From: a virus
Taxonomy: Duplodnaviria > Caudoviricetes
Reading direction: 5' to 3' (one strand)
IMG/VR virus record: IMGVR_UViG_3300025137_005045
Length of the DNA: 64,000 bases
Each line of letters opens with the position of its first letter. Positions within the stretch are counted from its first letter, which is position 1. Below, one piece after another: positions 2,361 through 52,981 of this stretch. A program made the translations under genes and the position numbers. The notes beneath the pieces were generated by a model. The model was not told the origin of the DNA. It worked only from the letters and a program-made list of their open reading frames with translations, and searched no databases.

Positions 2361-2377
2361 CGCTATTCTCTATTTTA

Positions 2378-2391: not shown

Positions 2392-2393
2392 TA

Positions 2394-26709: not shown

Positions 26710-26910
26710 ATGACTACTTTTTTATTAGTTTTTATTTTTTTAGTTGGTTTCATCTTATTGATGTCGCTTGGAGTAATTTTTATGGGTAAAAACATCAAAG
26801 GAAGTTGTGGTGGATTAAATGCTATCTCTAATTCAGATAAATGTCTGGTTTGTAATAAAGATATTGATCCAAATAATCCATTAAAAAGTAAACTTGATTG
26901 TAAAAAGTAA
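26710..26910 (+). CDS. NqrM/DUF539-like small membrane protein
   Basis: TM helix then IKGSCGGL...C..C. Confidence 0.7.
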   Translation: MTTFLLVFIFLVGFILLMSLGVIFMGKNIKGSCGGLNAISNSDKCLVCNKDIDPNNPLKSKLDCKK

Positions 26911-32260: not shown

Positions 32261-32889
32261 AGAAACTATTAATCATAACAGGCCCGCAAGGTAGTGGTAA
32301 TCATTTGTTTAGTAGAATACTAAGCCTGCATCCTGATGTAGGTGGATGGAAGGATCTATCAGATGAGTATTGGGTTCCTAGCGATCAGGAACCATTTGCT
32401 GACTATTGGGTGGATCCGGATAAATTAACTTTAGATACATTTGAAGGTAACGACTACTGGGTAGCTAATGTATCAGTGCCATTTGTATATGATGGTGTTA
32501 AGCAGGTACCTAAGATTGATGCTATGGCGTCTAAGGCACGTTCTTTGGGAATAGATGTACAAATATGTGTTATAGTCAGAGACATGTATATAAACGATTT
32601 ACAACAACAAAGAGTACGAGGAGAACGAACATTACCTATAGCAGTTGACTACTTTGATACATTAGGTGATGTACACTATTTAGATCATGAAGCATTCTTC
32701 CTATACAAAGACCGTTACTTAAAATGGTTAAGTAAGATATTAGACTTTCCAATAGACTATGATAATTTAGATATTATGAAGTTCATTGAAGAAGGTCCTA
32801 ACAAGAAATATGTTAACTATGTCGACGAGTATTGGTTAGACGAACAAGTATGGAAAGGTATACAGCCCAAAAAGGCTAGAGGACTATGA
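32257..32889 (+). CDS. Sulfotransferase-like P-loop protein (paralog 2)
   Basis: IITGPQGSGNHLFSRIL; IVRD; LDHE. Confidence 0.55.
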   Translation: MKKLLIITGPQGSGNHLFSRILSLHPDVGGWKDLSDEYWVPSDQEPFADYWVDPDKLTLDTFEGNDYWVANVSVPFVYDGVKQVPKIDAMASKARSLGIDVQICVIVRDMYINDLQQQRVRGERTLPIAVDYFDTLGDVHYLDHEAFFLYKDRYLKWLSKILDFPIDYDNLDIMKFIEEGPNKKYVNYVDEYWLDEQVWKGIQPKKARGL

Positions 32890-33314
32890 AAGGAAAGAAA
32901 ATACTAATCATGGGCCTTCCTGGCTCCGGCAAAACTACTCTGGCAGAACAATTAGTAGATCGCTTACCAGCAGTATGGTTTAATGCTGATGAGATTCGTA
33001 ACAACATCAATAAAGATTTAGGATTTACTGACAAGGACCGTGTAGAGCAAGCAAGACGACTTGGCCTTCTATGTGATATTGCTTTGCGTAATCATGTTGT
33101 TAATTACGCTCTGGCAGACTTCATATGTCCTACCGATGTTACTCGTAAAACATTTAATCCAGATATTATCGTATGGATGAATACCATACAGAAAGGACGA
33201 TTCGAAGATACCAATCAAATTTTTGAAAATCCTGACTTCTATAATATAGAAATTACAAGTTGGGACTACGATATTGATTACATATTTGAACAGATAAAAT
33301 TACATGATAGATAA
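32886..33314 (+). CDS. cysC: Adenylylsulfate (APS) kinase-like protein
   Basis: MGLPGSGKTTLA; NADEIR...DLGFTDKDR.EQARR; FICP. Confidence 0.75.
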   Translation: MKGKKILIMGLPGSGKTTLAEQLVDRLPAVWFNADEIRNNINKDLGFTDKDRVEQARRLGLLCDIALRNHVVNYALADFICPTDVTRKTFNPDIIVWMNTIQKGRFEDTNQIFENPDFYNIEITSWDYDIDYIFEQIKLHDR

Positions 33315-36822: not shown

Positions 36823-37593
36823 ATGAATCCTCATGAAGTCTTAGGCATCAAACAAGGTGCCACTGAACAAGAAGCTAAAAAGGCCTATAAAAAATTAGCC
36901 AGTAAGCATCACCCTGACAAAGGTGGTGACACTAAGCAGTTTCAAGAAATTAAAGAAGCGTACGAACGTATCACTAATCCAGAAAAGTTTGCACATGAAA
37001 ATATGGGACATACTCCTGGAGGCTTTAGATATCAGCGTGGCGGATCTGTCGACGATATATTCTCAGATTTCTTTGGACATCACGCAGGTAGACAACAAAG
37101 ACAATCAACTGTGCAACTTAGCTTGTGGATAACTTTAGAAGATGTCAATACTGGTGGAGAAAGAACTGTAAAACTTCAAGGTAATGAAGGACCTCAAATA
37201 GTTAATATTACCATACCTAGAGGTGTATTGGACAATACCCATGTTCGATATCCTGATTTGGGTCCTAGTGGTCAAGATCTGGTAGTAGTATTTCGTGTAC
37301 GGGACCATCAGAAGTTTGTTAGAATTAAATCAATTGATCTTGCTTGTGAACAACAGGTTGATATATGGACGTTGTTATTAGGTGGCAACATCAAAGTTAC
37401 TACATTATCAGGTGATATCAAGACTTTAAAAATACAACCCAAGACTGATTTTAATACTCAATTAAGATTAAAAGGTTATGGTATTCAAAATACTAGGCAA
37501 ACCGGTGATCTTTATGTTAAAATTAAAGCTACAATGCCAGATAACATCTCAGATGATTTACTGGAAATATTAAGACAACATTTAAACAAATAA
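36823..37593 (+). CDS. DnaJ/CbpA-type J-domain co-chaperone
   Basis: J domain with HPD; G/F linker; C-terminal domain; no Zn finger. Confidence 0.9.
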   Translation: MNPHEVLGIKQGATEQEAKKAYKKLASKHHPDKGGDTKQFQEIKEAYERITNPEKFAHENMGHTPGGFRYQRGGSVDDIFSDFFGHHAGRQQRQSTVQLSLWITLEDVNTGGERTVKLQGNEGPQIVNITIPRGVLDNTHVRYPDLGPSGQDLVVVFRVRDHQKFVRIKSIDLACEQQVDIWTLLLGGNIKVTTLSGDIKTLKIQPKTDFNTQLRLKGYGIQNTRQTGDLYVKIKATMPDNISDDLLEILRQHLNK

Positions 37594-37624: not shown

Positions 37625-39934
37625 ATGCAGAATAACCCAGAAATAGAACAAATCATTGATGACGCTGTTAAGAGTGCTCAACAGATGAATCATCAATACG
37701 TAACTGTTGAACATTTAAGTCTTGCACTAATAAGATTTGCCAGTTTCCGTAAGGTATTAATTACGTTTGGCATCAACTGTGCCCAACTTGAAAAAGAGTT
37801 AGAGAGTTACGTTAACGGCATGGCACATCTGATTAAAATAAGTGACGACAAAGAAAAACCTGTTGTAAAACCAAAAAAAACTAACGCATTAGAAAGAATA
37901 TTTAATAGAGCAGGTACGCAGGTATTATTCTCAGGTAGACGTTTTGTTACAACACTTGATTTATATCTTGCTATTATGAGCGAAGGGCAAAGTCATGCTC
38001 ATTATTTCTTTTTAAAGTACGGAGTTAATCGTAAAGAATTTACTACACATTGGAATAGTTCATATCCCAAAGAGCGTGAAGTTAAACTCAGTGAAAAACA
38101 AGCCACAATGGTATTAGACGAACATTGTACTGACTTAACTAATCTTGCCAAAGAACAAAAATTAGAACCAATGATTGGTAGAACACAAGAATTGGATGAC
38201 ATGGTTAACGTGTTAGCTAAAAAGTTTAAAGCTAATGTACTGTTGGTCGGAGACCCTGGTGTGGGTAAAACTGCAATTGTTGAAGGTCTAGCACAATTAT
38301 TATCTAACAATGATGTTCCTAAATTTTTACATGATCATAAACTATATTCACTAGAGATAGGTAGCTTGCTAGCAGGTAGTAAGTATCGAGGTGAGTTTGA
38401 AGAAAAAGTTAAAGAAGTTCTTGATGCACTCAGTGCAAAAGGAAAATGTGTCCTATTCATTGATGAAGCACATCAAATGAAAGGCGCTGGAGCGGGAAGC
38501 GGTAGTTCAGTAGATTTTGCTAACATGATTAAACCAGCAATCACTAGCGGTAATCTAAAAGTTATAGCATCAACTACTTGGGAGGAATACTACGAGTCGT
38601 TCGAAAAAGAACGTGCTCTAATGCGTAGATTCTTTAGAGTAACTGTAGACGAACCTGATAAAGCAAGTACTGAAAAAATACTTACTGGTGTAGCACGTCG
38701 ACTTGAAGCATTTCATGAAGTTGAAATCAAAGATGATGCACTAGAAGCCGCAGTTGAAATGACTGCTAGGTATATGACAGATAAGAAAAATCCAGATAAG
38801 TCAATTGACGTTGTTGATGCCGCCTGTGCTAGAGAACGTGCTCGTAACGAAACTGGAGCAATAATTGATAGAAATAAGGTTATGGTTGAAGTTTCAAAGT
38901 TAGCTAATGTTCCTGTTGATAGACTTAAAAATGAACAAAGCGAAAAAATTAAAAACTTAGAATCAAACATTAAAGATAAATTATACGGACAAGAACATGT
39001 TATTACTGACGTGCTAGATCGTATATATGTTAGCTTTTCAGGTATTAAACAAGAAAATAGACCAGTAGCTAGTTTCTTATTCCTAGGACCAACTGGTACA
39101 GGTAAAACAGAAATGGCCAAACTATTAAGTGAGAATTTGGATATGAAGTTACTAAAATATGACATGAGTGAATATCAAGAACGTCATACAGTATCCAGTC
39201 TTATTGGTGCCCCTCCGGGATATGTTGGATTTGAAGATGGTAATGTGGGTGGTGGTAGACTAATATCAGATCTGACTAAAAATCCATTCTCAATTATATT
39301 ATTTGATGAAATTGAAAAAGCACATCCAGATGTGTCAAACATATTACTTGCAATGATGGATGAAGGTATTGTTACTAGCTCTGCAGGTAAATCAGTAGAT
39401 ATCAAAAATTGTATTATTATTTTAACATCAAACTTAGGTGCTAGGGAAAACGAAGCAAATAACATTGGCTTTGGTCAAGAGTTAGATAAAATAGGAAGTG
39501 AAGATAAAGCTGTTAAAGACTTCTTCAAACCTGAGCTTAGAAATAGACTTGACATGATTTGTAAGTTTAAAAAACTAGATAATCTAGCTGTTAAGAAAAT
39601 TGTAGTTAAATTTATCGATGAACTTAAACAGGGTCTTAAAGATAAGAATATTACCATTGGCACCACTGAAGAATTGATCGATCATCTGGTCAAAGTAGGT
39701 TATGATCCTAAAATGGGTGCAAGACCATTAAACAGAAAAATAGATCAACTTATACGTGTTCCTCTCAGTAAAAAAATATTGTTTGATAATATGCAATCCT
39801 GTGAACTTGTGTTAGATTGGAAAAACGAAAATCTAGATATCAAACAGGTAGGACAGAAACAGTTAGTGTCTCCTCAACCTAAAGTAACCGACGACGGTTT
39901 TATAGTTCTTGATCAGTTCAAACCAAAGAACTAA
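37625..39934 (+). CDS. clpA: ClpA ATP-binding subunit
   Basis: Clp N-domain; two AAA modules (GVGKT, GTGKT); IGF loop; no ClpB middle domain. Confidence 0.9.
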   Translation: MQNNPEIEQIIDDAVKSAQQMNHQYVTVEHLSLALIRFASFRKVLITFGINCAQLEKELESYVNGMAHLIKISDDKEKPVVKPKKTNALERIFNRAGTQVLFSGRRFVTTLDLYLAIMSEGQSHAHYFFLKYGVNRKEFTTHWNSSYPKEREVKLSEKQATMVLDEHCTDLTNLAKEQKLEPMIGRTQELDDMVNVLAKKFKANVLLVGDPGVGKTAIVEGLAQLLSNNDVPKFLHDHKLYSLEIGSLLAGSKYRGEFEEKVKEVLDALSAKGKCVLFIDEAHQMKGAGAGSGSSVDFANMIKPAITSGNLKVIASTTWEEYYESFEKERALMRRFFRVTVDEPDKASTEKILTGVARRLEAFHEVEIKDDALEAAVEMTARYMTDKKNPDKSIDVVDAACARERARNETGAIIDRNKVMVEVSKLANVPVDRLKNEQSEKIKNLESNIKDKLYGQEHVITDVLDRIYVSFSGIKQENRPVASFLFLGPTGTGKTEMAKLLSENLDMKLLKYDMSEYQERHTVSSLIGAPPGYVGFEDGNVGGGRLISDLTKNPFSIILFDEIEKAHPDVSNILLAMMDEGIVTSSAGKSVDIKNCIIILTSNLGARENEANNIGFGQELDKIGSEDKAVKDFFKPELRNRLDMICKFKKLDNLAVKKIVVKFIDELKQGLKDKNITIGTTEELIDHLVKVGYDPKMGARPLNRKIDQLIRVPLSKKILFDNMQSCELVLDWKNENLDIKQVGQKQLVSPQPKVTDDGFIVLDQFKPKN

Positions 39935-42639: not shown

Positions 42640-42668
42640 TTGACAAAGCTATTAAATATCCGTATAAT
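42640..42668 (+). promoter_or_regulatory. sigma70-type promoter
   Basis: TTGACA-17nt-TATAAT. Confidence 0.85.
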
Positions 42669-42697: not shown

Positions 42698-43543
42698 ATG
42701 GCCGACGCTCCAAAAGAAATAAGAATAAATTCACCAATACCAATGTCAATAAACTTAGCTGACCTTAAAAAAAGAGTCTTGCACTTTGCTATACCTTGTT
42801 ATGGAGGTATGATCACAGAGTCTACCATGATGAGTATGATTAAATGGGCCAACCAGGCAAAAGACCTAGGACTAAGTTGGACAGTAGAAACATTGGTTAA
42901 CGAAAGTCTTATTACACGTGGACGTAATACACTTGTTGCAAAATTTTTAGAGAATTCAGACACAACTGATTTATTTTTTGTAGACAGCGATATTGGATTT
43001 GAACCTTGGCATGTAATAGCTCTTATGGCTATGGACAAGGATGTAGCATGTGGATTATATCCTATGAAAACTGTTCCCGTGCAATGGGTAGTTAACAATG
43101 TTCTAGGTACCAAGGCTGAAAATGATGGTAATTGGATGGAGGTTACCAAATCAGGCACAGGATTTATGATGATTAAAAAACATGTATTTGAAAAACTTAA
43201 AGATCATCCAGCAGTAAAACCATTTACAAACGATATTGGACTACCTAAAGAATTAGATCCTCATATGCGTACTTACTTCGACACTGCTGTTAGAGAAGGA
43301 CGTTACTATTCAGAAGATTGGACATTCTGTGAAAACTGGAGAGATATAGGTGGAGAAATATGGATTGACCGTCGCGTACATCTCAGACATTCAGGTTCAT
43401 TTGTATTTTGTGCTGAAGCAGATGATGCTATTAAACAACAAATGAAAGACCATGTGCCAACAATGAAGCTAGAGCAAATACCTGAAAAACCTAAAACAGC
43501 AAAAGTTTTAGCTAAATCAAAGTCCAAGTCTAAAAAGAAGTAA
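42698..43543 (+). CDS. GT-A fold glycosyltransferase-like protein
   Basis: ESLITRGRN; FVDSDI; GTGFMMI; SEDWTFC. Confidence 0.7.
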   Translation: MADAPKEIRINSPIPMSINLADLKKRVLHFAIPCYGGMITESTMMSMIKWANQAKDLGLSWTVETLVNESLITRGRNTLVAKFLENSDTTDLFFVDSDIGFEPWHVIALMAMDKDVACGLYPMKTVPVQWVVNNVLGTKAENDGNWMEVTKSGTGFMMIKKHVFEKLKDHPAVKPFTNDIGLPKELDPHMRTYFDTAVREGRYYSEDWTFCENWRDIGGEIWIDRRVHLRHSGSFVFCAEADDAIKQQMKDHVPTMKLEQIPEKPKTAKVLAKSKSKSKKK

Positions 43544-43575
43544 TGATAAATACTAGCCTACATTAAGGAATACTT

Positions 43576-44373
43576 ATGAAAGCTAGTGAATTTATTACAG
43601 ACGCCGGTGTTGGCATTATTACAAAACAAAATACGACTGCTGACGTCAAGCCTGGCGAAACAAAAAGACAAGCCAAGAAATTAGGGATGACGTTGGACAA
43701 GAAGAACCGTCCGCCCTTACTGCATAAAAAAGCAGTTAAGAACTCTTCACCCAATACCCTTTTTAATCTTGGCCTCAGTGAAAGTAATGCCGACGATCTT
43801 ATGGCCTATGCCGACAAAATGGATCCGACGGACATAGACTATAAAAAATTTATCCGTGCCGCAAAGATAGCTAGAACAGGCAAAAAGATACACATGGATA
43901 ACTTTTTAAACACAATAGATACAGACCCTAGAGATAAAATTATTAGTATGCTAGGTGAAACCAAAGAAGCACCCAAGGGAACTTACTTCACCAAGACAGG
44001 TAATTTGGTCAAGGGCAAACTGACCAAGGATGCCAAGACCAAGGGTGCCAGAGAAACTGACCCCAAGGACAAGATAAGAAAAAAAGTACCCAAGGTCACA
44101 CAGTACAATGAGGAAGAAGACAAAGAATTTGAAACGGATCTAAAACTGCCCAATGGTAAGAAGATGGTGCTACAGGCAGATGACCCAAAATATGTCAGAG
44201 GCATAGTGGTCAGGAGCAACAAGGATGGATCCTACGATTCATACTATTGGATTGATCATCCTGACAATGTTATGGCTATTGAAATCAAGTTGGATGATGA
44301 GAGTGTAAAGAAAGATGCCAAGATGATACATTGGGCATATCACCCTGAACTGGAAGAGCATAGGGTAAAATGA
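43576..44373 (+). CDS. Modular late protein with CTS-like N-terminus
   Basis: MKASEFITD; TAAATA at 43547-43552. Confidence 0.7.
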   Translation: MKASEFITDAGVGIITKQNTTADVKPGETKRQAKKLGMTLDKKNRPPLLHKKAVKNSSPNTLFNLGLSESNADDLMAYADKMDPTDIDYKKFIRAAKIARTGKKIHMDNFLNTIDTDPRDKIISMLGETKEAPKGTYFTKTGNLVKGKLTKDAKTKGARETDPKDKIRKKVPKVTQYNEEEDKEFETDLKLPNGKKMVLQADDPKYVRGIVVRSNKDGSYDSYYWIDHPDNVMAIEIKLDDESVKKDAKMIHWAYHPELEEHRVK

Positions 44374-45191
44374 GAGCAACTGACTTTACAAAAAAAGCCA
44401 CGGAGCGATCTAAAATTTATCTAGATATGGATGGTGTACTTGCTGATTTCTTTTCTGAATATGCTAAATTGGCTAATGTTAAATCATATAGAGATATCCC
44501 CCCAGCTAAGGTAGATCCAATACTTAACTCTATTGCTGGCACAAATTTCTTTGCTAAGTTACCTAAGTTTCCAACAACAGACAAACTAGTTAACCTTGCT
44601 GTATCACATGCAGGTAGTTACAGTATTTGTTCAAGTCCTTTACGTAATGATTATAATAATTCAGAGTACTGGAAAAAGATTTGGATTAAAGCTAAACTAA
44701 CACCACAACCAAGCACTGTAAAAATAACATCAAACAAATCTTACTACGCAGTATCAGACGGCACACCTAATATTTTAATCGACGACAAAGGTTCAAACAT
44801 TATAGGATGGAGAGAAGCAGGTGGTATTGGCATTAAGTATCAAGCAGATGAAGATAGTTTAGAAGTTGTCAAGCAAGCATTAGAACTAATATTCTGTGAT
44901 GTCAAGGATACATGTGACACGGATGAGGTAGAAGAAGACTGGTCAGAAAAATATAAAAAATCTATAGATTGTAATAGTCCAAAAGGATTTAGTCAGAAGG
45001 CACATTGTGCTGGTAAAAAGAAAAAAGCAAACGAAAACTTTGCGGATGGCAAAAAGCCTGGACGCAAAGGTTTAGCAAAACGTATGGGTGTTGACTGTAG
45101 TAAGTCAAAAACAGCATTACGTAAAATTGCCAAAAATAGCACAGGTGAGAAACAACGTATGGCCCATTTCTGTGCTAACATGAAGAAGTAG
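44370..45191 (+). CDS. 5'(3')-deoxyribonucleotidase with CTS-like leader and basic Cys-containing tail modules
   Basis: MRATDF; IYLDMDGVLADF; ILIDD; tail SIDCNSPKGFSQKAHC...ENFADGKKPGRKG. Confidence 0.8.
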   Translation: MRATDFTKKATERSKIYLDMDGVLADFFSEYAKLANVKSYRDIPPAKVDPILNSIAGTNFFAKLPKFPTTDKLVNLAVSHAGSYSICSSPLRNDYNNSEYWKKIWIKAKLTPQPSTVKITSNKSYYAVSDGTPNILIDDKGSNIIGWREAGGIGIKYQADEDSLEVVKQALELIFCDVKDTCDTDEVEEDWSEKYKKSIDCNSPKGFSQKAHCAGKKKKANENFADGKKPGRKGLAKRMGVDCSKSKTALRKIAKNSTGEKQRMAHFCANMKK

Positions 45192-45200
45192 TATAAGAGA

Positions 45201-45225
45201 CAAAAAGGATCGTACACGATGAAAG
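45201..45225 (+). repeat. 25-bp direct repeat copy 1 (RBS plus start)
   Basis: CAAAAAGGATCGTACACGATGAAAG. Confidence 0.9.
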
Positions 45226-45470
45226 TTAACGAAATTATAGTAGAAAAGAAAGAGTCCTTAGAAGAATTAGATTCTTTAATGGGAGTCAAAGATCCTGTGA
45301 TATCAATTTATGATACCAAGGGTAAGTATCTTGACAGACTTAAGATGAGTATTGCGGCTAAGAAATATAAGTTTGATATGAAAACTATCAGACCACAGTT
45401 TCAAAATCAAGACAGAGTCGATCATGGCGAATACACATTAATGGCACCAGTTGCTGGTCAACCATCATAA
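45219..45470 (+). CDS. Small protein with CTS-like N-terminus
   Basis: MKVNEIIVE. Confidence 0.7.
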   Translation: MKVNEIIVEKKESLEELDSLMGVKDPVISIYDTKGKYLDRLKMSIAAKKYKFDMKTIRPQFQNQDRVDHGEYTLMAPVAGQPS

Positions 45471-45495
45471 CAAAAAGGATCGTACACAATGAAAG
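45471..45495 (+). repeat. 25-bp direct repeat copy 2 (24/25 identical)
   Basis: CAAAAAGGATCGTACACAATGAAAG. Confidence 0.9.
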
Positions 45496-46034
45496 CAATT
45501 GATATTTTAACGGAAGTTAAAAAGGAACAATCACTGACACTCGAAAAATTACCCTATGGTACCGACGAATTATCTCCTGTACTGTCTAAGGAAAACGTGG
45601 AATATCATTATAATATATTGTCAAAAGGTTATGTTGATCGATATAACAACAACGAAGGCGATCCTGATTTTAATTATGGAGGAGCAAAGTTGCACAATCT
45701 GTGGTGGACACAATTGCGTAAACCGAGTGGAGCAAACTTACCAGTAGGACCTATAAAAGAATTTATTAATACCAACTTCAAAGATTATGATAATTTTAAA
45801 GATGAAGTGTTATCAGCAGGACTGAAATTACAGGGTTCGGGTTGGATTTACCTTTCAAAAAAGGGAGAAGTAAAAACTACGCCAAATCAATCTTATAAAA
45901 CAGAGATAATGATGCCAATAGACATGTGGGAACATTCATATTCGGATTATGTTCCTGATAAAAGTGCTAAGAAAAAATACATAGAAAATGTAATGAAAAT
46001 AATTAATTGGGATATTGTCAATCAGAGACTTTAA
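45489..46034 (+). CDS. Fe/Mn superoxide dismutase family protein with CTS-like extension
   Basis: LPY; EYHY; FNYGGAKLH; IDMWEHSY. Confidence 0.88.
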   Translation: MKAIDILTEVKKEQSLTLEKLPYGTDELSPVLSKENVEYHYNILSKGYVDRYNNNEGDPDFNYGGAKLHNLWWTQLRKPSGANLPVGPIKEFINTNFKDYDNFKDEVLSAGLKLQGSGWIYLSKKGEVKTTPNQSYKTEIMMPIDMWEHSYSDYVPDKSAKKKYIENVMKIINWDIVNQRL

Positions 46035-46036
46035 AT

Positions 46037-46339
46037 ATGAGAGCAATCGATCTGACAGCAACACAAGGAAAAGAGCCACCTCAGGTCAGACCTGGGCAGT
46101 ATCCTGGTGAATATCTTGACCTGTCAGTTAAAGACCTAGTACCTGTACAAAAGGTTAGACACGTACATAAAACTATTAAAGCAAACAAAAAAGTTAAACA
46201 GGGAGACTATACTCCTATTGTCATTGATCGAGATAATCGTATTGTAAATGGACATCATAGATATGATGCTCTTAAAAATGCGGGTCATCATCAAGCAAAA
46301 GTATATAAGTTAGAAAAGGATATAGAAGAGATAGTATGA
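46037..46339 (+). CDS. ParB/sulfiredoxin-like domain protein (start corrected from 46007)
   Basis: MRAIDL; PIVIDRDNRIVNGHHRYDA. Confidence 0.75.
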   Translation: MRAIDLTATQGKEPPQVRPGQYPGEYLDLSVKDLVPVQKVRHVHKTIKANKKVKQGDYTPIVIDRDNRIVNGHHRYDALKNAGHHQAKVYKLEKDIEEIV

Positions 46340-47070
46340 AAAAATTACTAATAATACTATTACTATTCACAACAACATCATTTGCATATGATCCTAAAAA
46401 CTTTAATCCAGACTTATGGCCATACATACAAGAAAGAATGTTCGGTGTTAGACCAGTTGTTGTATTAGATGCTAACGATGAGTTGATGGTGTCAGGACCT
46501 ATAAGAGCTTCAAGTGGAGCACAGGTTCCAGTAAATATAAAAATTAATACAGAACGTTTTGTAAAAATACATCTGATCATCGATTCTAATCCAACACAGC
46601 TTGCGGCCACATTTAAATTAACTAAAAATACTCAGAACACAGAAATAACGACCCGTATCAGAATGGAAACAGATAGTTACGTTCGTGTGGTAGGAGAAAC
46701 TATCCGTGGAGAGCTATACACACACAAGACAGGTATCAGAGCCAGTGGCGGCTGTTCGGGTTACATGGATGTACATGATCCAGAACTTACTCGAGACTTA
46801 GGCAAGATATTATATAAAAAGAAAGACAATGCTCATACTACCAGGATTAAACATCCTATGTTTACTGGTTTACAAAAAGATTTAGAGTCAGGTGGTTATA
46901 TACCATTATGGACTGTTAAAACTATTACATGGATCGACGATGAAAATAATATTATAATGCAAGCGGATACTTACATTTCAATTTCAAAAGATCCATATAT
47001 TAAATTTAAATACAATGGTGATGTTAAAATTGTTGCCGATGATACAAAAGGAAATTCATTTAAAAAATGA
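46336..47070 (+). CDS. Secreted SoxY-SoxZ-like fusion (quinoprotein dehydrogenase-associated carrier type)
   Basis: Signal peptide; TRIRMETDSYVRVV; ASGGCSG; IKHPMFTGLQKD; SISKDPYIKF. Confidence 0.75.
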   Translation: MKKLLIILLLFTTTSFAYDPKNFNPDLWPYIQERMFGVRPVVVLDANDELMVSGPIRASSGAQVPVNIKINTERFVKIHLIIDSNPTQLAATFKLTKNTQNTEITTRIRMETDSYVRVVGETIRGELYTHKTGIRASGGCSGYMDVHDPELTRDLGKILYKKKDNAHTTRIKHPMFTGLQKDLESGGYIPLWTVKTITWIDDENNIIMQADTYISISKDPYIKFKYNGDVKIVADDTKGNSFKK

Positions 47071-48389
47071 GAGCAAGACAATTTATACGAGAGTACTCCA
47101 GAGAAAAAACTCAGCAGGTGCATGGCGAGAAAATCATACAAGCACTACAGAGAGATAAGCAACCTCGTGCCGATTTAGATATATGGAACTTGCATTCAAG
47201 TAGTGGCAGTTGGAAAGACATGCACCCAAATTCCAAACAAGAGTTGTTAAACAAGATATTTGCTCAAATTGAATCAGGAGATCCTAGTAAAAACAAAGAA
47301 TACAGTCAATGGTTAGCACGTATGTATTCAAAAGGTGATACACCGCTAGAAGATATTAAAAGTAAGACACGAGACGATTTAGAAAAATATATAGCTCTCA
47401 AGTTAAGAAAGAAACTAAAGCCCGAACACAAAGATATTAATCAAATAAAAGCACCCATTAATCTATCACAGGCAATGGCTAACTACAGTGATGAAGAACT
47501 AGAAGCACCTGTTACAGACAAAGGTAGCAGTCGTGAAATTTATCGTGACAGTGCAATTAGAGTTATAGTGCCTAAGGATACAGCGGCGGCTTGTTATTAT
47601 GGTCAAGGGACTAAATGGTGTACTGCGGCACGCAGTAACAACATGTTTGATCAGTATCACAAGATGGGAGATATGTATATCATAATGCCTACTAAACCCA
47701 AGTACGAAGGCGAAAAGTATCAGTTCCATTTCCAAAGTGGACAGTTTATGGACGAGCAAGATCGTGATGTAGATATGTATAAGGTACTAAGACAGTATCC
47801 TTCAATACGTAATATTAAAACAATAACTGATTGGGCTAAACGTAAAACGGTACCAGCACTAATGACTGATGAAGATTATGCTGAGTGGAAAGACGAAAGC
47901 AATACACAGATACTTAACAATCGTGTAATGTACGGTGATATGTATACCTTAAGTTTAAATCAACCAGGCACTTCAATGGATTCCTGGACAATTAGTAGTA
48001 GTACTATTAAAATGTTAACTGAAAAAAGCATGATGAAAGAATCAGAATGGTCTCAGCTAGCAGGTACAGACTACATAGCCTATGGTTGGTTTGACACAAC
48101 CAGTAATACTTGTTTGGGTGTAACATATGCTGAACTAGGTGAAGATCCTGGATTTGCAGTTCAGACCATTGATAATGATCAGTTTGAAGAGGCAGTCGGG
48201 TTAAATGTTGAACCCGAAGTTGTAAAGCTAGAAAAATTCTTAAAAGGTATGGTACGAATAGAAAATGAAGCAATGGGGGATGGTTTAGCTAAAGAACAGT
48301 ATGACAAAGCAGTTAACCAACTGTTGGATAGTTATGGTTACCCAATGTCAGTAACAGGATATGTAGGTGGAGAGCCAGAGAGAGCATAA
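47067..48389 (+). CDS. CTS-bearing late protein with GTxWC (PcfJ-like) domain, paralog 1
   Basis: MRARQFIRE; AACYYGQGTKWCTAA; KYQFH..SGQFMDEQD. Confidence 0.7.
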   Translation: MRARQFIREYSREKTQQVHGEKIIQALQRDKQPRADLDIWNLHSSSGSWKDMHPNSKQELLNKIFAQIESGDPSKNKEYSQWLARMYSKGDTPLEDIKSKTRDDLEKYIALKLRKKLKPEHKDINQIKAPINLSQAMANYSDEELEAPVTDKGSSREIYRDSAIRVIVPKDTAAACYYGQGTKWCTAARSNNMFDQYHKMGDMYIIMPTKPKYEGEKYQFHFQSGQFMDEQDRDVDMYKVLRQYPSIRNIKTITDWAKRKTVPALMTDEDYAEWKDESNTQILNNRVMYGDMYTLSLNQPGTSMDSWTISSSTIKMLTEKSMMKESEWSQLAGTDYIAYGWFDTTSNTCLGVTYAELGEDPGFAVQTIDNDQFEEAVGLNVEPEVVKLEKFLKGMVRIENEAMGDGLAKEQYDKAVNQLLDSYGYPMSVTGYVGGEPERA

Positions 48390-49606
48390 TGAGAGCAAAA
48401 CAATTTATAATAGAATACGATAGAACTAAAACTGCACAGGCATTTGCCGCAAAGCTAGTTAATACTGCTATGCAAGACAACACTGTTCCGGGTGCTGTTA
48501 GAAAAAATATACAGGATAACATGACTCCTGTAGAAGCCGCTGAGATGATACTTAAAAATCAAATTGAAGTGGGTGATCCTACCAAACAGAAAAAGTATTC
48601 ACAAGCCCTAGCAAAGATGTATGCCAACGGTTTAATCAAATGGGAAGACATAGGTAGCACAATGCGTGACTACTTGACTAAGTTTGCTACTCTGGCAGTT
48701 AAAAAATTACTTAAACCTGAACACTCAGACTTTAATAGATTTAAAGATTTAAAATCATTCTATGATGTAGTTGATCAATATGAAGAGCCCGAAGGCAAAG
48801 AAAAGAGATCAAAAGGTGATGCCAAGGAAGTTTACAGAGATGCGAATGTGCGTGTCATACAGCCCGAGGACATGAATGCCGCTTGCTACTATGGACAGGG
48901 TACACGTTGGTGTACAGCCGCAGATAGTAATAATATGTTTGATAGATATAATCAAGATGGTGATATGTATATCATAATACCCACCAAAGCCACCCACGAA
49001 GGTGAGAAGTATCAGATACATCCTGCGTCAGGACAATACATGGACGAACAAGATCGTGATGTAGAAGCAGACGATTTAATAAAACGTTTTGGTCAAGACT
49101 TCAGAACATGGTGGTTAACTATAGACCCAGACCTAGGCGGACGTATAATATTTTTCCCTAATGAAGATGAACTTAGAAAAGCCTGTGAAGAAATTAAACA
49201 GATGAGTTTAGAATTCTTAAATGACGTTATGATAGATTGGGAAATGGATGATGAAACATATTATCAGTATCTTCAGGACGAGGGGTATGTTGATGAAGAA
49301 GGTGAGTACCAGGGTGATTATCCTTCATACACAGCATACAATGATTCTGCTGGTGCATATTATGGTAATGTTTACGGTGCCCTTGATATAACTGTAGATG
49401 AAGTGCGTGAACTAGCTAGACAAATTGAAGAAGATGACGGACGTAATCAATACATAGGCGATTTAGAAAATGTGTTTAGTATTAGTGTAGAAAACGCAAT
49501 AGATAGACAAGATGGATTACCAACTACAATATACAGACAGATACAAGTAACGCTTAAAAACGGTAAAATAACTGTAGAGTACATTCCACCACCTAAAAAA
49601 GATTAA
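48389..49606 (+). CDS. CTS-bearing late protein with GTxWC (PcfJ-like) domain, paralog 2
   Basis: MRAKQFIIE; AACYYGQGTRWCTAA; KYQIH..SGQYMDEQD. Confidence 0.7.
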   Translation: MRAKQFIIEYDRTKTAQAFAAKLVNTAMQDNTVPGAVRKNIQDNMTPVEAAEMILKNQIEVGDPTKQKKYSQALAKMYANGLIKWEDIGSTMRDYLTKFATLAVKKLLKPEHSDFNRFKDLKSFYDVVDQYEEPEGKEKRSKGDAKEVYRDANVRVIQPEDMNAACYYGQGTRWCTAADSNNMFDRYNQDGDMYIIIPTKATHEGEKYQIHPASGQYMDEQDRDVEADDLIKRFGQDFRTWWLTIDPDLGGRIIFFPNEDELRKACEEIKQMSLEFLNDVMIDWEMDDETYYQYLQDEGYVDEEGEYQGDYPSYTAYNDSAGAYYGNVYGALDITVDEVRELARQIEEDDGRNQYIGDLENVFSISVENAIDRQDGLPTTIYRQIQVTLKNGKITVEYIPPPKKD

Positions 49607-49639
49607 TAAATATTAGTATATAATACTCGGGGGAGTAAA

Positions 49640-49963
49640 GTGGCAGAAGATAAAAAAGTTGCAGTCCAAGCAACAGAAAAAAAACAAACAAAAAAAGTTA
49701 ATTTAGAACTAGAAGTAGATGCTACAGCAAAAGATCTAGGTGTTAGTCCTTATATAAATTGGGTACATATGGCTCGTGCTGTTGATGCATGGAGAATATT
49801 TCCAAGATTATTCTTAACTGTTTACATCATCTTATTATATAAATGTGTAATTTGGTATATGGCATTGCCTTTACCTACAATGGAACAATCAGGTTTAATC
49901 AGTATTGTAGTTGGTGCTGGTGCGGCATGGTTTGGACTTTACACAGGTTCAAGCAAAAAATAG
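49640..49963 (+). CDS. 2-TM membrane protein (holin candidate)
   Basis: GGGGAG SD, GTG start; WRIFPRLF TM1, TM2, basic C-terminus. Confidence 0.6.
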   Translation: MAEDKKVAVQATEKKQTKKVNLELEVDATAKDLGVSPYINWVHMARAVDAWRIFPRLFLTVYIILLYKCVIWYMALPLPTMEQSGLISIVVGAGAAWFGLYTGSSKK

Positions 49964-50040: not shown

Positions 50041-51036
50041 TCATTTCCAACCTAATTTATCAATACGATCTAAAATATTTTTACTGTACATCTCGTGAGT
50101 AAGTGGACCAGGATGGAGATCATCTGTGCCAAAATCTAAAAAGTTCGAATCAAAATCTGTGCCTGATCTCCCATTTATCATTATAAAATTTTTCCTGGAA
50201 GATAACATAGCACTAATTTCTACGCTATTGTGTAGTCCTACTAATAGCAAATCTACGCCAATTTTATCACAAACATTTTCTACTCTGTATATTGCTGATA
50301 GTGCTTCAAAAGTCCAATGATCTTCTAATAGACTAATTTCGGGTATTATTTTATCAAATTCTTTATTAGATTGATAATATCCACTGTTTATCATTTTAAT
50401 TGATTTGTTACGATACCAATAAAATCTTTCTGTACCGGTTAACCCCCATATTATTTTGTCGCCTTTTTTTAAATCAGCTCTTAAAAGTTGATCACTAGCA
50501 TACGATATACTACTACCTCCCATTGCTAAATCTATTGCAGGGAGATTAAGGTGTTTGCATACAGACTTCCAATATACTTTATCTTTATCTACTCCAACAG
50601 AAGCAGTTGTACTACATCCTGCTATCCATATATTTGAAGAATTAGAAACTCGACGTTGAGGAACTTCGGGCTTAAATTTGTAATTTTCTTCTGAAAAAGG
50701 AATATGTAAAGGTATGTTACTAGCATTAGAAGCTATTACAGAATAGTATAGAGAAAACCATGCCATGGAGTATTTTTTGTTTATAGTCTGTTTATCTGAC
50801 CAAAGATCATTGGCATTTTCAGACGGAGGATGAAATATAATTTCTGAAGATTTGAATAAAAGATTTATAAAACTTTTTAAATCAACATATCCGAGACTTA
50901 CATATACAACTCCACGATGTGTATCATTTACATTATTGGAATCTATCAAATATGCATCACTGTCTATATTTTTCGCATATTTACTGAGATATTCAGTGGT
51001 ATCACCGACTACTATTGTTAAATTTTTACTATACAC
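50041..51036 (-). CDS. Protein with C-terminal SGNH-like domain
   Basis: AGCSTT; GGSSI; DLHPG. Confidence 0.6.
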   Translation of the reverse strand: MYSKNLTIVVGDTTEYLSKYAKNIDSDAYLIDSNNVNDTHRGVVYVSLGYVDLKSFINLLFKSSEIIFHPPSENANDLWSDKQTINKKYSMAWFSLYYSVIASNASNIPLHIPFSEENYKFKPEVPQRRVSNSSNIWIAGCSTTASVGVDKDKVYWKSVCKHLNLPAIDLAMGGSSISYASDQLLRADLKKGDKIIWGLTGTERFYWYRNKSIKMINSGYYQSNKEFDKIIPEISLLEDHWTFEALSAIYRVENVCDKIGVDLLLVGLHNSVEISAMLSSRKNFIMINGRSGTDFDSNFLDFGTDDLHPGPLTHEMYSKNILDRIDKLGWK

Positions 51037-52981
51037 AATGTAATTGTTTCATTTTTGTTTCTTTAGTGATAAATGCTTTACCGAAATTACGTTTACGTCC
51101 ATACCAAAAGTCTTGTAAGAAACGATCAAATGTCATATCTTTATTTTCACGGAAGTCAAACTTGACCATGGTGGTTGAATCCAATGGTTCCTCATTGACA
51201 ATGTATCCAAAGAAGTCATAGTCAAATGTTTTTGCTAACGGATACTGCGTTAGTTTATCGTAGTTTAATACATATGTTCTATTGTAATCTAATAGTTGTG
51301 TCATTAACTTCTCAGGTAAGTCAAACGTTTTTCTAACAAATTGTTCTATTAGATCAAACACACGATCATGCTGATGATCTGCGTGCATGGTCATCGCTGT
51401 TCTGTGTATTAGATTCCAACCATGGATAGGAACTGTTCCACCAATTAACGGATGATTAATTCTACCTTTGTCTTTCCAATTATCGTAATATTTTCTAATT
51501 TCATCTTCTTCTTTTTTAAACCAATCATCTTGCTGTAAGAAAGGTATAAGTTTTTCATAAAATTCAGAATAGTCAATACTTTGATGTTTATGCAGGAATC
51601 TAGCTATCCAAGTTGTAAGTCCATTCATATGAAACGTGTTTATAAACCAATTGAATACTTGCGTGTCTACCATAATGTTTCTTGGCATTGTTCCTGTTGA
51701 CATAACAACTTCCACTGATTCTGCTAGACTATCATAGTTATAACTACCACTCATATAATCATATATAGGAACAGCTTCTAGTTTGTTCATTTTACGCTGT
51801 AGTAAATTCATTTCAGCATTTTCTAATAGCTGACACTGATGTATGGTAACACCTGTATGATTTCCTAAACGAAATAACGACCAAAGATTTTCTTTCCAGG
51901 TTTCCTGTGTTTCTCCAGGTAATCCTAATATAACTTCTGTGTCAACTGGTATACCATTCTTGTTACATAGATCAAATATTTCTGTAATATTATGTTGTCC
52001 TAGATTTTTACGTTTAATATTTTCTAAAACATCTAAGTTCATTGATTGTACTGATACTGTTAAACCTTGATTAAAGGATCCAGCTTTGAATAATTTTTGT
52101 ACTATTTTATATACATCTGCTTTTTGATTTTTAGCCCAAGTCATGCTTACACCTTGAGGAAATTTATACTTGGATTGAACTTCTAGTATTTTATCTGCTA
52201 TTTCATTGTCGCGATCACGGAACATACCAAAGTTAGCATCAGCAATAGTTATATAACCACATTTATTTTTACCTATCCATTCTATTTCGTCAAGCACACG
52301 ACTGTATTCAAACTTTTTAACTTTACCATATGTTAGACTACCCCAATCACAGAATGTACATTGATACGGACAACCTCTATTAGTTTCGATAGTGGCATTC
52401 CATTCTACTTTGCCCAATGTTTCTTTCATAAGTTTATCAAATACTCCTGTCAGATAAGGGCTAGGTACATCTTCGAGATCTTTTATTCTAGGAGCGTCTG
52501 GTGTTGCTACCCGTACTCCGTTTTTATTAAGTACAACACCGTTAATTTCTTCAAGGTCAGTGCCTTGATGTAATGCTACTAGTAAATTTCTAAATGTTAT
52601 TTCACCTTCTCGAACTACAACAAGATCCATGAAAGGATAAGTTTCAAAAACATTTTTCTTTTCATGTGGTATTTCTGGACCACCAAAAAATAGAAATACA
52701 TCTGGATTAACTTCTTTTAGTCGACGAGCAAGAGCATATATGTAATTACGATTCCACACATATGTTGAAAATCCAACTACTTTGTTATCTTTTAGCTGTT
52801 CAACATATTCTTCTATATCACGTCTTTCCCATATTAACTGATCTAACTCGTAATTATCTTTAACAACATCATCCTGCTGTGCATAACTCCATAGGATACC
52901 TGCACTATAGGGAAGATAGTGGGCATTAAGCTCTATAGGGCCTTGTTGAAAATTTGGTTGACACAGACTGACTTTTTTCAT
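51029..52981 (-). CDS. Cobalamin-binding radical SAM enzyme (class B-like)
   Basis: GFSTYVWN...GGPE; RGCPYQCTFCDW. Confidence 0.88.
   Translation of the reverse strand: MKKVSLCQPNFQQGPIELNAHYLPYSAGILWSYAQQDDVVKDNYELDQLIWERRDIEEYVEQLKDNKVVGFSTYVWNRNYIYALARRLKEVNPDVFLFFGGPEIPHEKKNVFETYPFMDLVVVREGEITFRNLLVALHQGTDLEEINGVVLNKNGVRVATPDAPRIKDLEDVPSPYLTGVFDKLMKETLGKVEWNATIETNRGCPYQCTFCDWGSLTYGKVKKFEYSRVLDEIEWIGKNKCGYITIADANFGMFRDRDNEIADKILEVQSKYKFPQGVSMTWAKNQKADVYKIVQKLFKAGSFNQGLTVSVQSMNLDVLENIKRKNLGQHNITEIFDLCNKNGIPVDTEVILGLPGETQETWKENLWSLFRLGNHTGVTIHQCQLLENAEMNLLQRKMNKLEAVPIYDYMSGSYNYDSLAESVEVVMSTGTMPRNIMVDTQVFNWFINTFHMNGLTTWIARFLHKHQSIDYSEFYEKLIPFLQQDDWFKKEEDEIRKYYDNWKDKGRINHPLIGGTVPIHGWNLIHRTAMTMHADHQHDRVFDLIEQFVRKTFDLPEKLMTQLLDYNRTYVLNYDKLTQYPLAKTFDYDFFGYIVNEEPLDSTTMVKFDFRENKDMTFDRFLQDFWYGRKRNFGKAFITKETKMKQLHCV

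What the first reader, a model, noticed from the sequence alone, without database searches (positions are those of the whole stretch)
46336..47070. Periplasmic SoxYZ-like carrier of the PQQ-dehydrogenase type in a phage
A Sec signal peptide is followed by fused SoxY-like (ASGGCSG) and SoxZ-like (HPMxTGLQ, SISxDP) halves. The internal GGCS and the fusion match the quinoprotein alcohol/methanol-dehydrogenase-associated carrier, not thiosulfate-oxidising SoxY (C-terminal GGCGG). This would be a rare auxiliary gene for C1/alcohol oxidation and suggests a methylotroph-like marine host (e.g. OM43-type; inference). It is the only untagged gene inserted in the cargo array.
Basis: partly seen in the sequence, partly recalled or inferred. 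Interest (0 to 1): 0.7.

Follow-up and report, generated by a model that had tools for sequence, protein, structure and literature searches.

The report
Phage SoxYZ-like carrier for methanol oxidation
A giant marine phage of methanol-eating OM43 bacteria carries a host-derived, exported cysteine "carrier" protein that has been published as a sulfur-oxidation gene but belongs to the family that accompanies PQQ-dependent methanol dehydrogenases, so it most likely helps keep the host's methanol oxidation running during infection.

Summary
The ORF at 46336-47070 (+) is real. It encodes 244 aa: a Sec-type signal peptide, a SoxY-like half with the protein's only cysteine (ASGGCSG, Cys140), and a SoxZ-like half. 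[quoted passage not shown] It fails the true SoxY and SoxZ models, and the predicted fold matches solved SoxY.

All 34 nearest cellular relatives are OM43-clade Methylophilaceae. Five such genomes have XoxF and the SoxH-related relay hydrolase TIGR04559, but no SoxA or SoxB. In 21 of 27 OM43 loci, two pqqA genes lie 0.7-1.9 kb upstream. A related viral contig carries xoxF (95% identical to OM43), a formate-dehydrogenase gene, pqqA and this gene together. The window's own phage (~293 kb) has pqqA 63 kb upstream.

However, the gene is neither rare nor new. An overlapping contig, identical to the window over the 3.5 kb compared, is listed with a "soxYZ" thiosulfate-oxidation AMG in Kieft et al. 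2021, and a 2024 paper placed viral SoxYZ in the xoxF-linked clade. What this work adds is the reassignment to PQQ/XoxF methylotrophy. The chemistry is untested.

Earlier notes of this scan on the same genome (pqqA, nqrF/nqrM) agree.

The parts
46336..47070 (+). Gene for the 244-aa fused SoxYZ-like carrier (stop codon included)
   Evidence: ORF list and translation. TIGR04557 scores 189.6 bits against a cut-off of 140. AlphaFold2 model has mean pLDDT 94.2 and pTM 0.89.
46336..46386 (+). Sec-type signal peptide (residues 1-17: MKK, a hydrophobic core, then SFA before the likely cleavage site)
   Evidence: Read from the sequence. All viral and OM43 homologues have an equivalent hydrophobic N-terminus ending in A before the conserved (D)ANPDxWPY start of the mature protein. 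No dedicated signal-peptide predictor was available.
46459..46755 (+). SoxY-like domain (residues 42-140) ending at the carrier cysteine Cys140 (46753-46755) in the arm ASGGCSG
   Evidence: Pfam PF13501. In a profile-to-PDB alignment the Cys falls on the carrier Cys of solved SoxY chains 4uwq_B and 2ox5_Y. Foldseek top hit is 2ox5_Y, TM 0.84, rmsd 2.2 A. G138 and G139 are invariant and C140 at least 90% conserved in 80 diverse homologues.
46756..46836 (+). Conserved linker after the cysteine (SGYMDVHDPELTRDLGKILYKK...), replacing the free C-terminus of canonical SoxY
   Evidence: Nearly invariant among viral and OM43 sequences. It has the lowest pLDDT of the mature protein (86) and contains a short helix at 149-153.
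46837..47064 (+). SoxZ-like domain (residues 168-243) with the HPMFTGLQ and SISKDP motifs
   Evidence: Pfam PF08770, 58.2 bits. Profile hits to SoxZ chains 4uwq_C and 1v8h_A, E 1.3e-14.
42640..42668 (+). Perfect sigma-70 consensus promoter-like site (TTGACA, 17 nt spacer, TATAAT) heading the same-strand gene run 42698-49963 that contains the carrier gene
   Evidence: 12 of 12 matches. The carrier's start overlaps the stop of the upstream gene (ATGA at 46336-46339). Its stop overlaps the start of the next gene (ATGA at 47067-47070). Co-transcription is inferred, not shown.
46037..46339 (+). Upstream 100-aa gene (starts MRAIDL...), a conserved neighbour
   Evidence: The same order, 100-aa gene then SoxYZ-like then a 410- or 440-aa gene, occurs in related viral contigs L001, L002 and L004-L006. 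No Pfam family matched.
47067..48389 (+). Downstream 440-aa gene (starts MRARQFIREY), a conserved neighbour of unknown function
   Evidence: No Pfam family matched.

Best explanation
The gene encodes a periplasmic, single-cysteine SoxYZ-like carrier of the 'quinoprotein relay' type (TIGR04557). It was taken from OM43-clade Methylophilaceae by large T4-like marine phages and is kept under purifying selection. It is exported by the host Sec system. In the periplasm it adds to the host's own carrier, which works with PQQ-dependent, lanthanide-type methanol dehydrogenase XoxF and with the host's SoxH-related zinc hydrolase (TIGR04559). The most likely chemistry is that Cys140, on the exposed ASGGCSG arm, covalently takes up a reactive sulfur or thiol species. 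This would protect or keep active the PQQ and vicinal-disulfide active site of XoxF. The host hydrolase would then regenerate the carrier. The phage also encodes pqqA (the peptide consumed to make PQQ) and nqrF/nqrM, and relatives encode xoxF itself. Together these would sustain methanol-driven energy supply while the phage replicates. Shown here: identity, fold, family, host lineage, genomic links to pqqA and xoxF, and selection. Inferred: export, timing, the partner enzymes and the chemistry.
For: - **Family:** TIGR04557 scores above its cut-off; true SoxY and SoxZ score below theirs.
- **Fold:** the SoxY and SoxZ folds are confirmed, and Cys140 aligns with the carrier Cys.
- **Host lineage:** all 34 nearest cellular homologues (50-58% identity) are OM43/Methylophilaceae. 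Viral and OM43 sequences form one clade, with 100% SH-aLRT support, apart from other family members.
- **Host gene content (five OM43 genomes):** XoxF 5/5, TIGR04559 hydrolase 5/5 above cut-off, SoxB 0/5, SoxA 0/5.
- **pqqA in hosts:** tandem pqqA genes lie 0.7-1.9 kb upstream, divergently oriented, in 21 of 27 OM43 loci.
- **Related viral contig G006:** it carries xoxF (95% aa identity to OM43 XoxF), an FDH-alpha-like gene, pqqA about 120 bp upstream of the carrier gene, and phage genes (ligase, NrdAB, tail-fibre-like, phage-only PHROGs).
- **Same phage genome:** pqqA lies about 17.3 kb before the window start, on a contig 100% identical to the window over 3,478 bp. NqrF is 87% and NqrM 71% identical to the HTCC2181 proteins.
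- **Wider family:** in 20 fused family members sampled from the same class, 10 have a full-length PQQ dehydrogenase match within 10 kb.
- **Selection:** dN/dS is 0.08-0.25 among viral copies, and every residue invariant in OM43 is retained.
- **Literature:** PP_2677 and its partners accompany Ln/PQQ alcohol dehydrogenases (PMC12997753). Viral SoxYZ falls in the xoxF/fdh-linked clade 4 (PMC11237559).
Against: - No experiment exists for any TIGR04557 member. RB-TnSeq of PP_2677 showed minimal phenotypes under the conditions used (PMC12997753).
- In the window and in OM43 genomes the gene is not next to xoxF. It is about 700 kb away in complete OM43 genomes.
- No PQQ dehydrogenase is in the window or in the other viral sequence held for this phage type.
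- OM43 lacks the CXXCW rhodanese partner TIGR03865, so the host system is reduced.
- The phage sequences held carry no SoxH-like hydrolase.
- No expression evidence was obtained.
Confidence: 0.62

Rival explanations
1. It is a canonical Sox-pathway carrier, the published reading. The phage would boost thiosulfate oxidation in a sulfur-oxidising host by supplying SoxYZ to SoxAX, SoxB and SoxCD.
For: It has the SoxY and SoxZ domains and the GGC carrier cysteine. This is the interpretation given to the overlapping contig's soxYZ gene and its relatives by Roux et al. 2016 and Kieft et al. 2021.
Against: It fails the curated true-SoxY and true-SoxZ models (58.8 against 125, 42.9 against 76). The cysteine is internal (GGCSG plus a linker), not a C-terminal GGCGG. 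The only close cellular relatives are OM43, where SoxB and SoxA were not found in 5 of 5 genomes, three of them complete. No sox gene lies near the gene in any viral or host locus examined.
Confidence: 0.06
2. It is a general periplasmic sulfur or thiol scavenger that is not specifically tied to XoxF or PQQ. For example, it might bind sulfide, sulfite or methanethiol-derived sulfur released during C1 and organosulfur metabolism or during cell takeover.
For: The chemistry of the fold is covalent sulfur binding on a cysteine arm (solved SoxYZ structures). In OM43 the gene stands alone, with a TauE/SafE-family transporter gene close downstream on the other strand. In about half of the sampled family members no PQQ dehydrogenase lies within 10 kb.
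Against: The pqqA link is conserved in OM43 (21 of 27 loci), and pqqA is directly adjacent in viral contig G006 with xoxF 6 kb away. The same phage genome carries pqqA. Association with PQQ dehydrogenases is about 50% within 10 kb, far above chance.
Confidence: 0.15
3. It handles PQQ itself rather than sulfur. The single cysteine would reversibly bind PQQ or a precursor in the periplasm and deliver it to apo-XoxF, so the phage pairs it with pqqA to speed cofactor supply.
For: The gene is paired with pqqA, not with xoxF, in OM43 (21 of 27 loci) and in viral contig G006 (about 120 bp apart). The arm and linker after the cysteine are conserved and differ from sulfur-carrying SoxY.
Against: There is no precedent for this. 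Elsewhere in the family the neighbour is the dehydrogenase with SoxH-like and rhodanese proteins, which points to sulfur chemistry. pqqA and the carrier gene are separate transcription units, divergent in OM43 and separated by a terminator-like hairpin in G006.
Confidence: 0.1
4. It is a passenger gene with no role in infection, picked up from the host and not yet lost.
For: Large phages carry many host-derived genes, and no expression evidence was obtained here.
Against: dN/dS is 0.08-0.25 across viral copies that have diverged to 60-70% identity, with every invariant residue kept. The position is conserved in several related phages. The gene occurs in at least four different phage genome contexts, including a T7-like podovirus contig.
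Confidence: 0.04

Closest known systems
[quoted passage not shown]
   Same: One polypeptide with SoxY-like and SoxZ-like halves, a signal peptide and an internal A-S-G-G-C-S arm. It scores above the curated cut-off. Genomes that carry it have PQQ/lanthanide alcohol or methanol dehydrogenases and a SoxH-like hydrolase.
   Different: It is encoded by a phage. The OM43/viral branch has its own conserved linker (GYMDVHDPELT...) in place of the usual SAP.... It is linked to pqqA rather than lying next to the dehydrogenase, and the CXXCW rhodanese partner is absent from the hosts.
Viral 'soxYZ' auxiliary metabolic genes of marine T4-like phages (Roux et al. 2016, bioRxiv 10.1101/053090; Kieft et al. 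2021, PMC8190135)
   Same: Almost certainly the same gene. Contig JGI24004J15324_10000009, whose gene _131 is listed as soxYZ, is 100% identical to the window over the 3,478 bp of overlap compared, and by its coordinates it spans the gene. The 'ggCs' motif, the fusion, the myovirus context and purifying selection were all reported there.
   Different: Those papers read it as a thiosulfate-oxidation carrier of sulfur-oxidising hosts. The evidence here points to OM43 methylotroph hosts without Sox enzymes and to the PQQ/XoxF system.
SoxYZ-S4 / clade 4 fused SoxYZ linked to xoxF and formate dehydrogenase genes (PMC11237559, 2024)
   Same: Fused SoxYZ, syntenic with xoxF and fdh genes, found in organisms that do not live on thiosulfate. 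That paper noted viral sequences inside the clade. Viral contig G006 shows the same xoxF-fdh-soxYZ neighbourhood.
   Different: That work concerned symbiont genomes and treated the viral sequences only as a hint of horizontal transfer. It did not assign the host lineage or note the pqqA link.
SoxYZ carrier complex of Paracoccus pantotrophus and Thermus (PDB 2ox5, 2oxg, 4uwq)
   Same: Same two folds and the same position of the carrier cysteine after GG.
   Different: The canonical carrier is two separate proteins with the cysteine in a free C-terminal GGCGG 'swinging arm', working with SoxAX, SoxB and SoxCD. Here the halves are fused, the cysteine is internal, and the true-family cut-offs are not reached.
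Viral methanol dehydrogenase and pqqA in T4-like phages of freshwater Methylophilaceae (Coutinho et al. 2020, PMC7678222)
   Same: Large T4-like phages of Methylophilaceae that carry parts of the PQQ-dependent methanol oxidation system. The window's phage has pqqA, and relative G006 has xoxF and pqqA.
   Different: That study did not mention a SoxYZ-like gene. Here the phages are marine (OM43), and the carrier gene appears as a further component of the module.

Membership tests
[quoted passage not shown] | Score above NCBI's curated cut-off over the full-length model | tested here: met
   189.6 bits against a cut-off of 140, residues 28-243 on model positions 1-226 of 226.
[quoted passage not shown] | SoxY-like and SoxZ-like domains fused in one chain, with an internal GGC arm | tested here: met
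   Pfam SoxY at 42-140 and SoxZ at 168-243. ASGGCSG at 136-142 is followed by 102 more residues. The model has pLDDT 94.2 and matches solved SoxY; the SoxZ half matches solved SoxZ chains by sequence profile.
[quoted passage not shown] | Exported (periplasmic) protein | tested here: inconclusive
   The N-terminus has the n/h/c layout of a Sec signal peptide, and all homologues share it. No signal-peptide predictor or experiment was available.
[quoted passage not shown] | Genomic association with a PQQ-dependent (methanol/ethanol family) dehydrogenase system | tested here: met
   Met at the level of genome and relatives, not of the immediate neighbourhood in the window. No PQQ dehydrogenase is in the window. 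pqqA is in the same phage genome. xoxF and pqqA lie beside the orthologue in viral contig G006. Tandem pqqA genes lie within 2 kb in 21 of 27 OM43 loci. XoxF is present in 5 of 5 OM43 genomes. 10 of 20 sampled family members have a PQQ dehydrogenase within 10 kb.
[quoted passage not shown] | Companion SoxH-related zinc hydrolase and CXXCW rhodanese-like protein | tested here: inconclusive
   The hydrolase TIGR04559 scores above its cut-off in 5 of 5 OM43 genomes. The CXXCW protein TIGR03865 was found in 0 of 5. Neither was found in the phage sequences held (for the hydrolase).
Canonical thiosulfate-oxidation SoxY (TIGR04488) and SoxZ (TIGR04490) | Score above the curated cut-offs | tested here: not met
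   58.8 against 125 for SoxY and 42.9 against 76 for SoxZ.
Canonical thiosulfate-oxidation SoxY (TIGR04488) and SoxZ (TIGR04490) | Carrier cysteine in a C-terminal GGCGG of a separate SoxY chain | tested here: not met
   The motif is GGCSG at 138-142 of 244, fused to SoxZ.
Canonical thiosulfate-oxidation SoxY (TIGR04488) and SoxZ (TIGR04490) | Sox partner enzymes (SoxAX, SoxB) in the same genome or in the host | tested here: not met
   SoxB 0 of 5 and SoxA 0 of 5 in OM43 genomes, three of them complete chromosomes. None was seen near the gene in viral loci.
Published viral soxYZ AMG set (Kieft et al. 2021) | Identity with a listed viral contig and gene | tested here: met
   JGI24004J15324_10000009 is 100% identical to window 1-3478. 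By its coordinates it spans to about window 51,578. Its gene _131 is listed as soxYZ in Supplementary Data 1. The gene sequence itself on that record could not be fetched.

The most novel reading that the evidence does not exclude
The carrier may not carry sulfur at all. Its single conserved cysteine would bind PQQ (or a late precursor) covalently in the periplasm and load it into apo-XoxF. This would explain why OM43 and a related phage keep the gene beside pqqA rather than beside xoxF, and why phages carry the two together as a cofactor-supply kit.
Probability: 0.1. Interest if true: 0.8.

Novelty: new member of a known kind. Interest (0 to 1): 0.5.

Why it matters
Viral "soxYZ" has been counted as a major phage contribution to marine sulfur oxidation. 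Kieft et al. estimated that about a third of soxYZ gene coverage in their Tara Oceans samples was viral. If this gene, and probably much of that clade, instead belongs to phages of OM43 methylotrophs and serves PQQ/XoxF methanol oxidation, then those estimates describe C1 cycling rather than sulfur cycling. OM43 phages would then carry a coherent methylotrophy kit: xoxF, pqqA, the SoxYZ-like carrier and NQR parts. This also offers a handle on a protein family whose function is unknown in every organism. Strong selection in phages, and a minimal host system (carrier plus one hydrolase, no rhodanese), make OM43 and its phages a simple setting in which to test what the quinoprotein relay does.

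Tried and rejected
- **Cultured phages:** tblastn of the protein against 50,697 isolated phage records gave no match, so no cultured phage with this gene is available in that collection.
- **Window genome:** no whole genome is held for the window. The rest of the ~293 kb contig could only be reached by walking along identical overlapping contigs.
- **Failed look-ups:** three exact-protein look-ups failed because of start-codon choice. The JGI record could not be searched directly.
- **Expression:** the one metatranscriptome run that shared a few words laid no contig on the stretch. This is neither evidence for nor against transcription.
- **Complex prediction:** Complex prediction of OM43 XoxF with the mature carrier gave no verdict (score 0.00, controls not run). 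It is not evidence either way.
- **Number of captures:** the ML tree nests one viral group (G009 type) inside an OM43 clade with 98% support. However, an AU test does not reject a single viral clade (p = 0.377), so the number of captures is left open.
- **Partner genes in phages:** searches of the phage sequences held for a SoxH-like hydrolase, and for xoxF outside G006, found nothing.
- **Misclassified contigs:** the idea that the IMG/VR contigs with FecR, CHASE2 cyclase, CsgG or xoxF are misclassified cellular DNA was considered. It was rejected for G006 and G008 for three reasons. They carry phage tail tube, tail-fibre-like, ligase and phage-only PHROG genes. Their flanks do not match OM43. 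And xoxF and fdh, which are 12 kb apart in OM43, are adjacent in G006 at different divergence. Chimeric assembly cannot be fully excluded for a single contig.
- **Class-wide search:** the search with TIGR04557 partly counts ordinary adjacent soxY-soxZ pairs read through a stop codon. Only hits without internal stops were used for the neighbourhood sample.
Full report
**Observation.** The window has an ATG-started ORF at 46336..47070 on the + strand, encoding 244 residues. The N-terminus (MKK, a 13-residue hydrophobic stretch, SFA) has the layout of a Sec signal peptide. ASGGCSG is at residues 136-142 and holds the protein's only cysteine (Cys140, nt 46753-46755). HPMFTGLQ is at 173-180 and SISKDP at 215-220. 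Pfam finds SoxY (42-140, 83.4 bits) and SoxZ (168-243, 58.2 bits), both well above their cut-offs. The gene's start overlaps the stop of the preceding 100-aa gene, and its stop overlaps the start of the following 440-aa gene. The same-strand neighbours from 43576 to 49606 share an N-terminal M[KR]-[AV]-x-[DEQ]-[FIL] word that this gene lacks.

[quoted passage not shown] It reaches only 58.8 of 125 bits on true SoxY and 42.9 of 76 on true SoxZ. A profile of 80 homologues hits the solved SoxY chains 4uwq_B (E 8.8e-19) and 2ox5_Y and the SoxZ chains 4uwq_C and 1v8h_A. In these alignments Cys140 falls on the carrier cysteine. An AlphaFold2 model is confident (pLDDT 94.2, pTM 0.89). Its best structural matches are SoxY of the Paracoccus SoxYZ complex (TM 0.84 on the target, rmsd 2.2 A). 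The fold is SoxYZ, and the best family is not the sox-operon one.

**The phage.**
- The window encodes a T4-type clamp loader, a family-B DNA polymerase, ClpP, ClpB, DnaJ, several radical SAM enzymes and an Fe/Mn superoxide dismutase.
- Its polymerase is closest, at about 44% identity, to jumbo myoviruses.
- The exact protein is recorded on a 293,090-bp contig.
- A related 115-kb IMG/VR contig carries a gp23-type capsid gene and is rated 33% complete.
- No cultured phage in a 50,697-record collection has the gene.

**Relatives.** A search of 5.8 billion proteins gave 484 homologues.
- Those at 62-96% identity lie on contigs syntenic with the window: DnaJ, ClpB..., 100-aa gene, carrier, 410/440-aa gene..., DNA polymerase.
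- IMG/VR holds 22 contigs with the gene.
- By shared gene content these fall into several types: the window type (G007, G010), a second type (G006, G008) and a third (G009).
- The second type carries a tail tube gene, CsgG, a CHASE2 cyclase, NrdAB, a DNA ligase, GroEL and tail-fibre-like genes.
- The third type has a phage lysozyme gene immediately upstream of the carrier gene.
- A 39%-identical fusion sits on a 41-kb T7-like contig.
- Viral copies evolve under purifying selection (pairwise dN/dS 0.08-0.25) and keep every residue that is invariant in the cellular proteins.
- Near-identical DNA occurs in marine metagenomes from about nine or more studies.

**Host lineage.**
- In one genome per prokaryotic species, all 34 loci encoding a close relative (50-58% identity) are OM43-clade Methylophilaceae. 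They include HTCC2181, KB13 and three complete LSUCC/Uisw genomes. One short contig is binned as an archaeon but is identical in sequence type.
- On a 163-row tree the viral and OM43 sequences form one clade (100% support) apart from other family members. The main viral group (window type, G008 type, G006) is separate from four OM43 groups, and the G009-type group nests inside an OM43 group (98%).
- An AU test does not reject a single viral clade (p = 0.377), so I do not claim a number of captures.
- Independent host links in the same phage genome are NqrM (window 26710-26910), 71% identical to HTCC2181, and an NqrF 87% identical to HTCC2181. These agree with earlier notes of this scan.

**What the hosts have.** In five OM43 genomes:
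- An XoxF-type PQQ dehydrogenase is present in 5 of 5, above the TIGR03075 cut-off.
- The 'quinoprotein relay system zinc metallohydrolase 2' (TIGR04559) is present in 5 of 5, above its cut-off.
- SoxB and SoxA were found in none.
- The CXXCW rhodanese-like partner TIGR03865 was found in none.

The close cellular relatives therefore live in methylotrophs that have no Sox pathway. That is hard to reconcile with a thiosulfate-oxidation role.

**The PQQ link.**
- In OM43 the carrier gene is about 700 kb from xoxF. However, two tandem pqqA genes lie 0.7-1.9 kb upstream on the opposite strand in 21 of 27 loci with enough flank.
- In viral contig G006 (72 kb) a pqqA identical to one HTCC2181 copy ends about 120 bp before the carrier gene. 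A terminator-like hairpin and a promoter-like site lie between them.
- Six to eight kb upstream in G006 lie a full XoxF (TIGR03075 608 bits; 95% aa and 87.6% nt identity to an OM43 XoxF) and a formate-dehydrogenase alpha-like gene (about 75% aa identity to OM43).
- These two genes are adjacent in G006 but 12 kb apart in OM43, and the flanks do not match OM43.
- For the window's own phage I walked upstream along overlapping contigs (100% and 99.93% identical to the window). I found pqqA (MWTKPQATEMRFGFEVTMYVMNK) about 17.3 kb before the window start, beside NqrF, a thioredoxin and a CHASE2 cyclase. This confirms earlier notes of this scan.
- As a check on the family name, I sampled 20 fused TIGR04557 genes from the same class. 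Of these, 10 have a full-length PQQ-dehydrogenase match within 10 kb and one more has only a weak match.

**What is already known.**
- Fused soxYZ in marine T4-like phages was reported by Roux et al. 2016 and analysed by Kieft et al. 2021. Those papers describe the ggCs motif, purifying selection and a 34% viral share of soxYZ coverage in Tara samples. They read it as a thiosulfate-oxidation AMG.
- Contig JGI24004J15324_10000009 is identical to the window over the 3,478 bp of overlap compared, and by its coordinates it spans the gene. It is listed in their Supplementary Data 1 with gene _131 as soxYZ.
- A 2024 study of SoxY diversity placed viral sequences in 'clade 4', the fused SoxYZ linked to xoxF and fdh, and suggested a role in carbon metabolism or in protecting methanol dehydrogenase.
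- A 2026 review of the Pseudomonas ped cluster describes PP_2666, PP_2677 and PP_2678 as conserved companions of lanthanide/PQQ alcohol dehydrogenases of unknown function.
- Coutinho et al. 2020 reported methanol dehydrogenase and pqqA in freshwater Methylophilaceae phages, without mentioning SoxYZ.
- The gene and its kind are therefore known. I did not find three things stated in the papers I read: the explicit assignment of this viral gene to OM43 phages and to the PQQ/XoxF system, the pqqA linkage in hosts, and the marine xoxF-fdh-pqqA-soxYZ viral cluster.

**Mechanism.** I commit to the following, with about 0.6 confidence.
- The protein is exported.
- Its Cys140 arm takes up a reactive sulfur or thiol species that would otherwise inactivate the PQQ and vicinal-disulfide site of XoxF. 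Alternatively, it exchanges with that disulfide. The OM43 XoxF has the Cys-Cys pair.
- The host TIGR04559 hydrolase recycles the carrier.
- The phage supplies extra copies of a stoichiometric, easily damaged component, just as it supplies pqqA, a peptide consumed once per PQQ.

The rivals are the canonical Sox role (0.06), a general sulfur scavenger (0.15), a PQQ-handling carrier (0.10) and a passenger gene (0.04). None of the chemistry has been tested in any organism. A structure-prediction test of XoxF with the carrier gave no verdict, and I obtained no expression evidence.

**Verdict.** The claim of rarity is wrong, and the gene is already in the literature under a different functional label. 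The value here is a better-supported re-reading of a published, abundant viral gene. Interest is moderate.

Noticed in passing
window 43576-49606: A run of same-strand genes whose products all start M[KR]-[AV]-x-[DEQ]-[FIL] (MKASEFI, MRATDFT, MKVNEII, MKAIDIL, MRAIDLT, MRARQFI, MRAKQFI). This resembles, from memory, the capsid-targeting leader of T4 internal proteins. One of them is an Fe/Mn superoxide dismutase (45489-46034) whose Pfam domain starts only at residue 17, after the leader. In the related contigs L001 and L002 a Cu/Zn superoxide dismutase occupies that place instead.
   Followed up: partly
L057 / G006 (IMGVR_UViG_3300025120_009955), contig positions 32272-45654: A marine viral contig carries, in order: a curlin-repeat protein, a full XoxF methanol dehydrogenase (95% aa identity to OM43), a formate-dehydrogenase alpha-like gene, an outer-membrane barrel protein, pqqA, the SoxYZ-like carrier and a CHASE2 adenylate/guanylate cyclase. 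Elsewhere it has NrdAB, DNA ligase, GroEL and ClpP. It looks like the marine counterpart of the Lake Baikal methylotroph phages.
   Followed up: partly
L052 7900-9735; L057 11573-13585; L121 6001-8052: A CHASE2-sensor adenylate/guanylate cyclase gene sits close to the carrier gene or to pqqA in three different phage genome types. In the window's phage it directly follows pqqA. Its role is unknown.
   Followed up: no
OM43 loci L009-L041 (for example L013 8392-8636): In 21 of 27 OM43-clade genomes, two tandem extra pqqA genes lie 0.7-1.9 kb upstream of, and divergent from, the SoxYZ-like gene. They are separated from it by a small lipoprotein-like ORF and a Sel1-repeat-like ORF. A TauE/SafE-family transporter gene lies just downstream on the other strand.
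   Followed up: partly
L125 8001-8741: [quoted passage not shown] The gene is therefore not confined to large myoviruses.
   Followed up: no
window 42640-42668: A perfect 12-of-12 sigma-70 consensus (TTGACA, 17 nt spacer, TATAAT) lies just upstream of the gene run that contains the carrier gene.
   Followed up: no
window 26710-26910: A 66-aa membrane protein is 71% identical to a protein of HTCC2181 only among five OM43 genomes. The NqrF gene of the same phage (L121 3890-5110) is 87% identical to HTCC2181, which points to an HTCC2181-like OM43 host that has Na+-NQR.
   Followed up: partly
window 2394-3524, 5303-6601, 24668-25576, 51029-52981: There are four radical SAM enzyme genes in 64 kb: one with a SPASM domain, and one with a B12-binding domain by homology to L002. 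The window also has ClpP (3594-4178), DnaJ (36823-37593) and ClpB (37625-39934). Kieft et al. also list 'cysC' on the overlapping contig; several P-loop kinase-like ORFs at 30637-33314 may be what was meant, but this was not checked.
   Followed up: no
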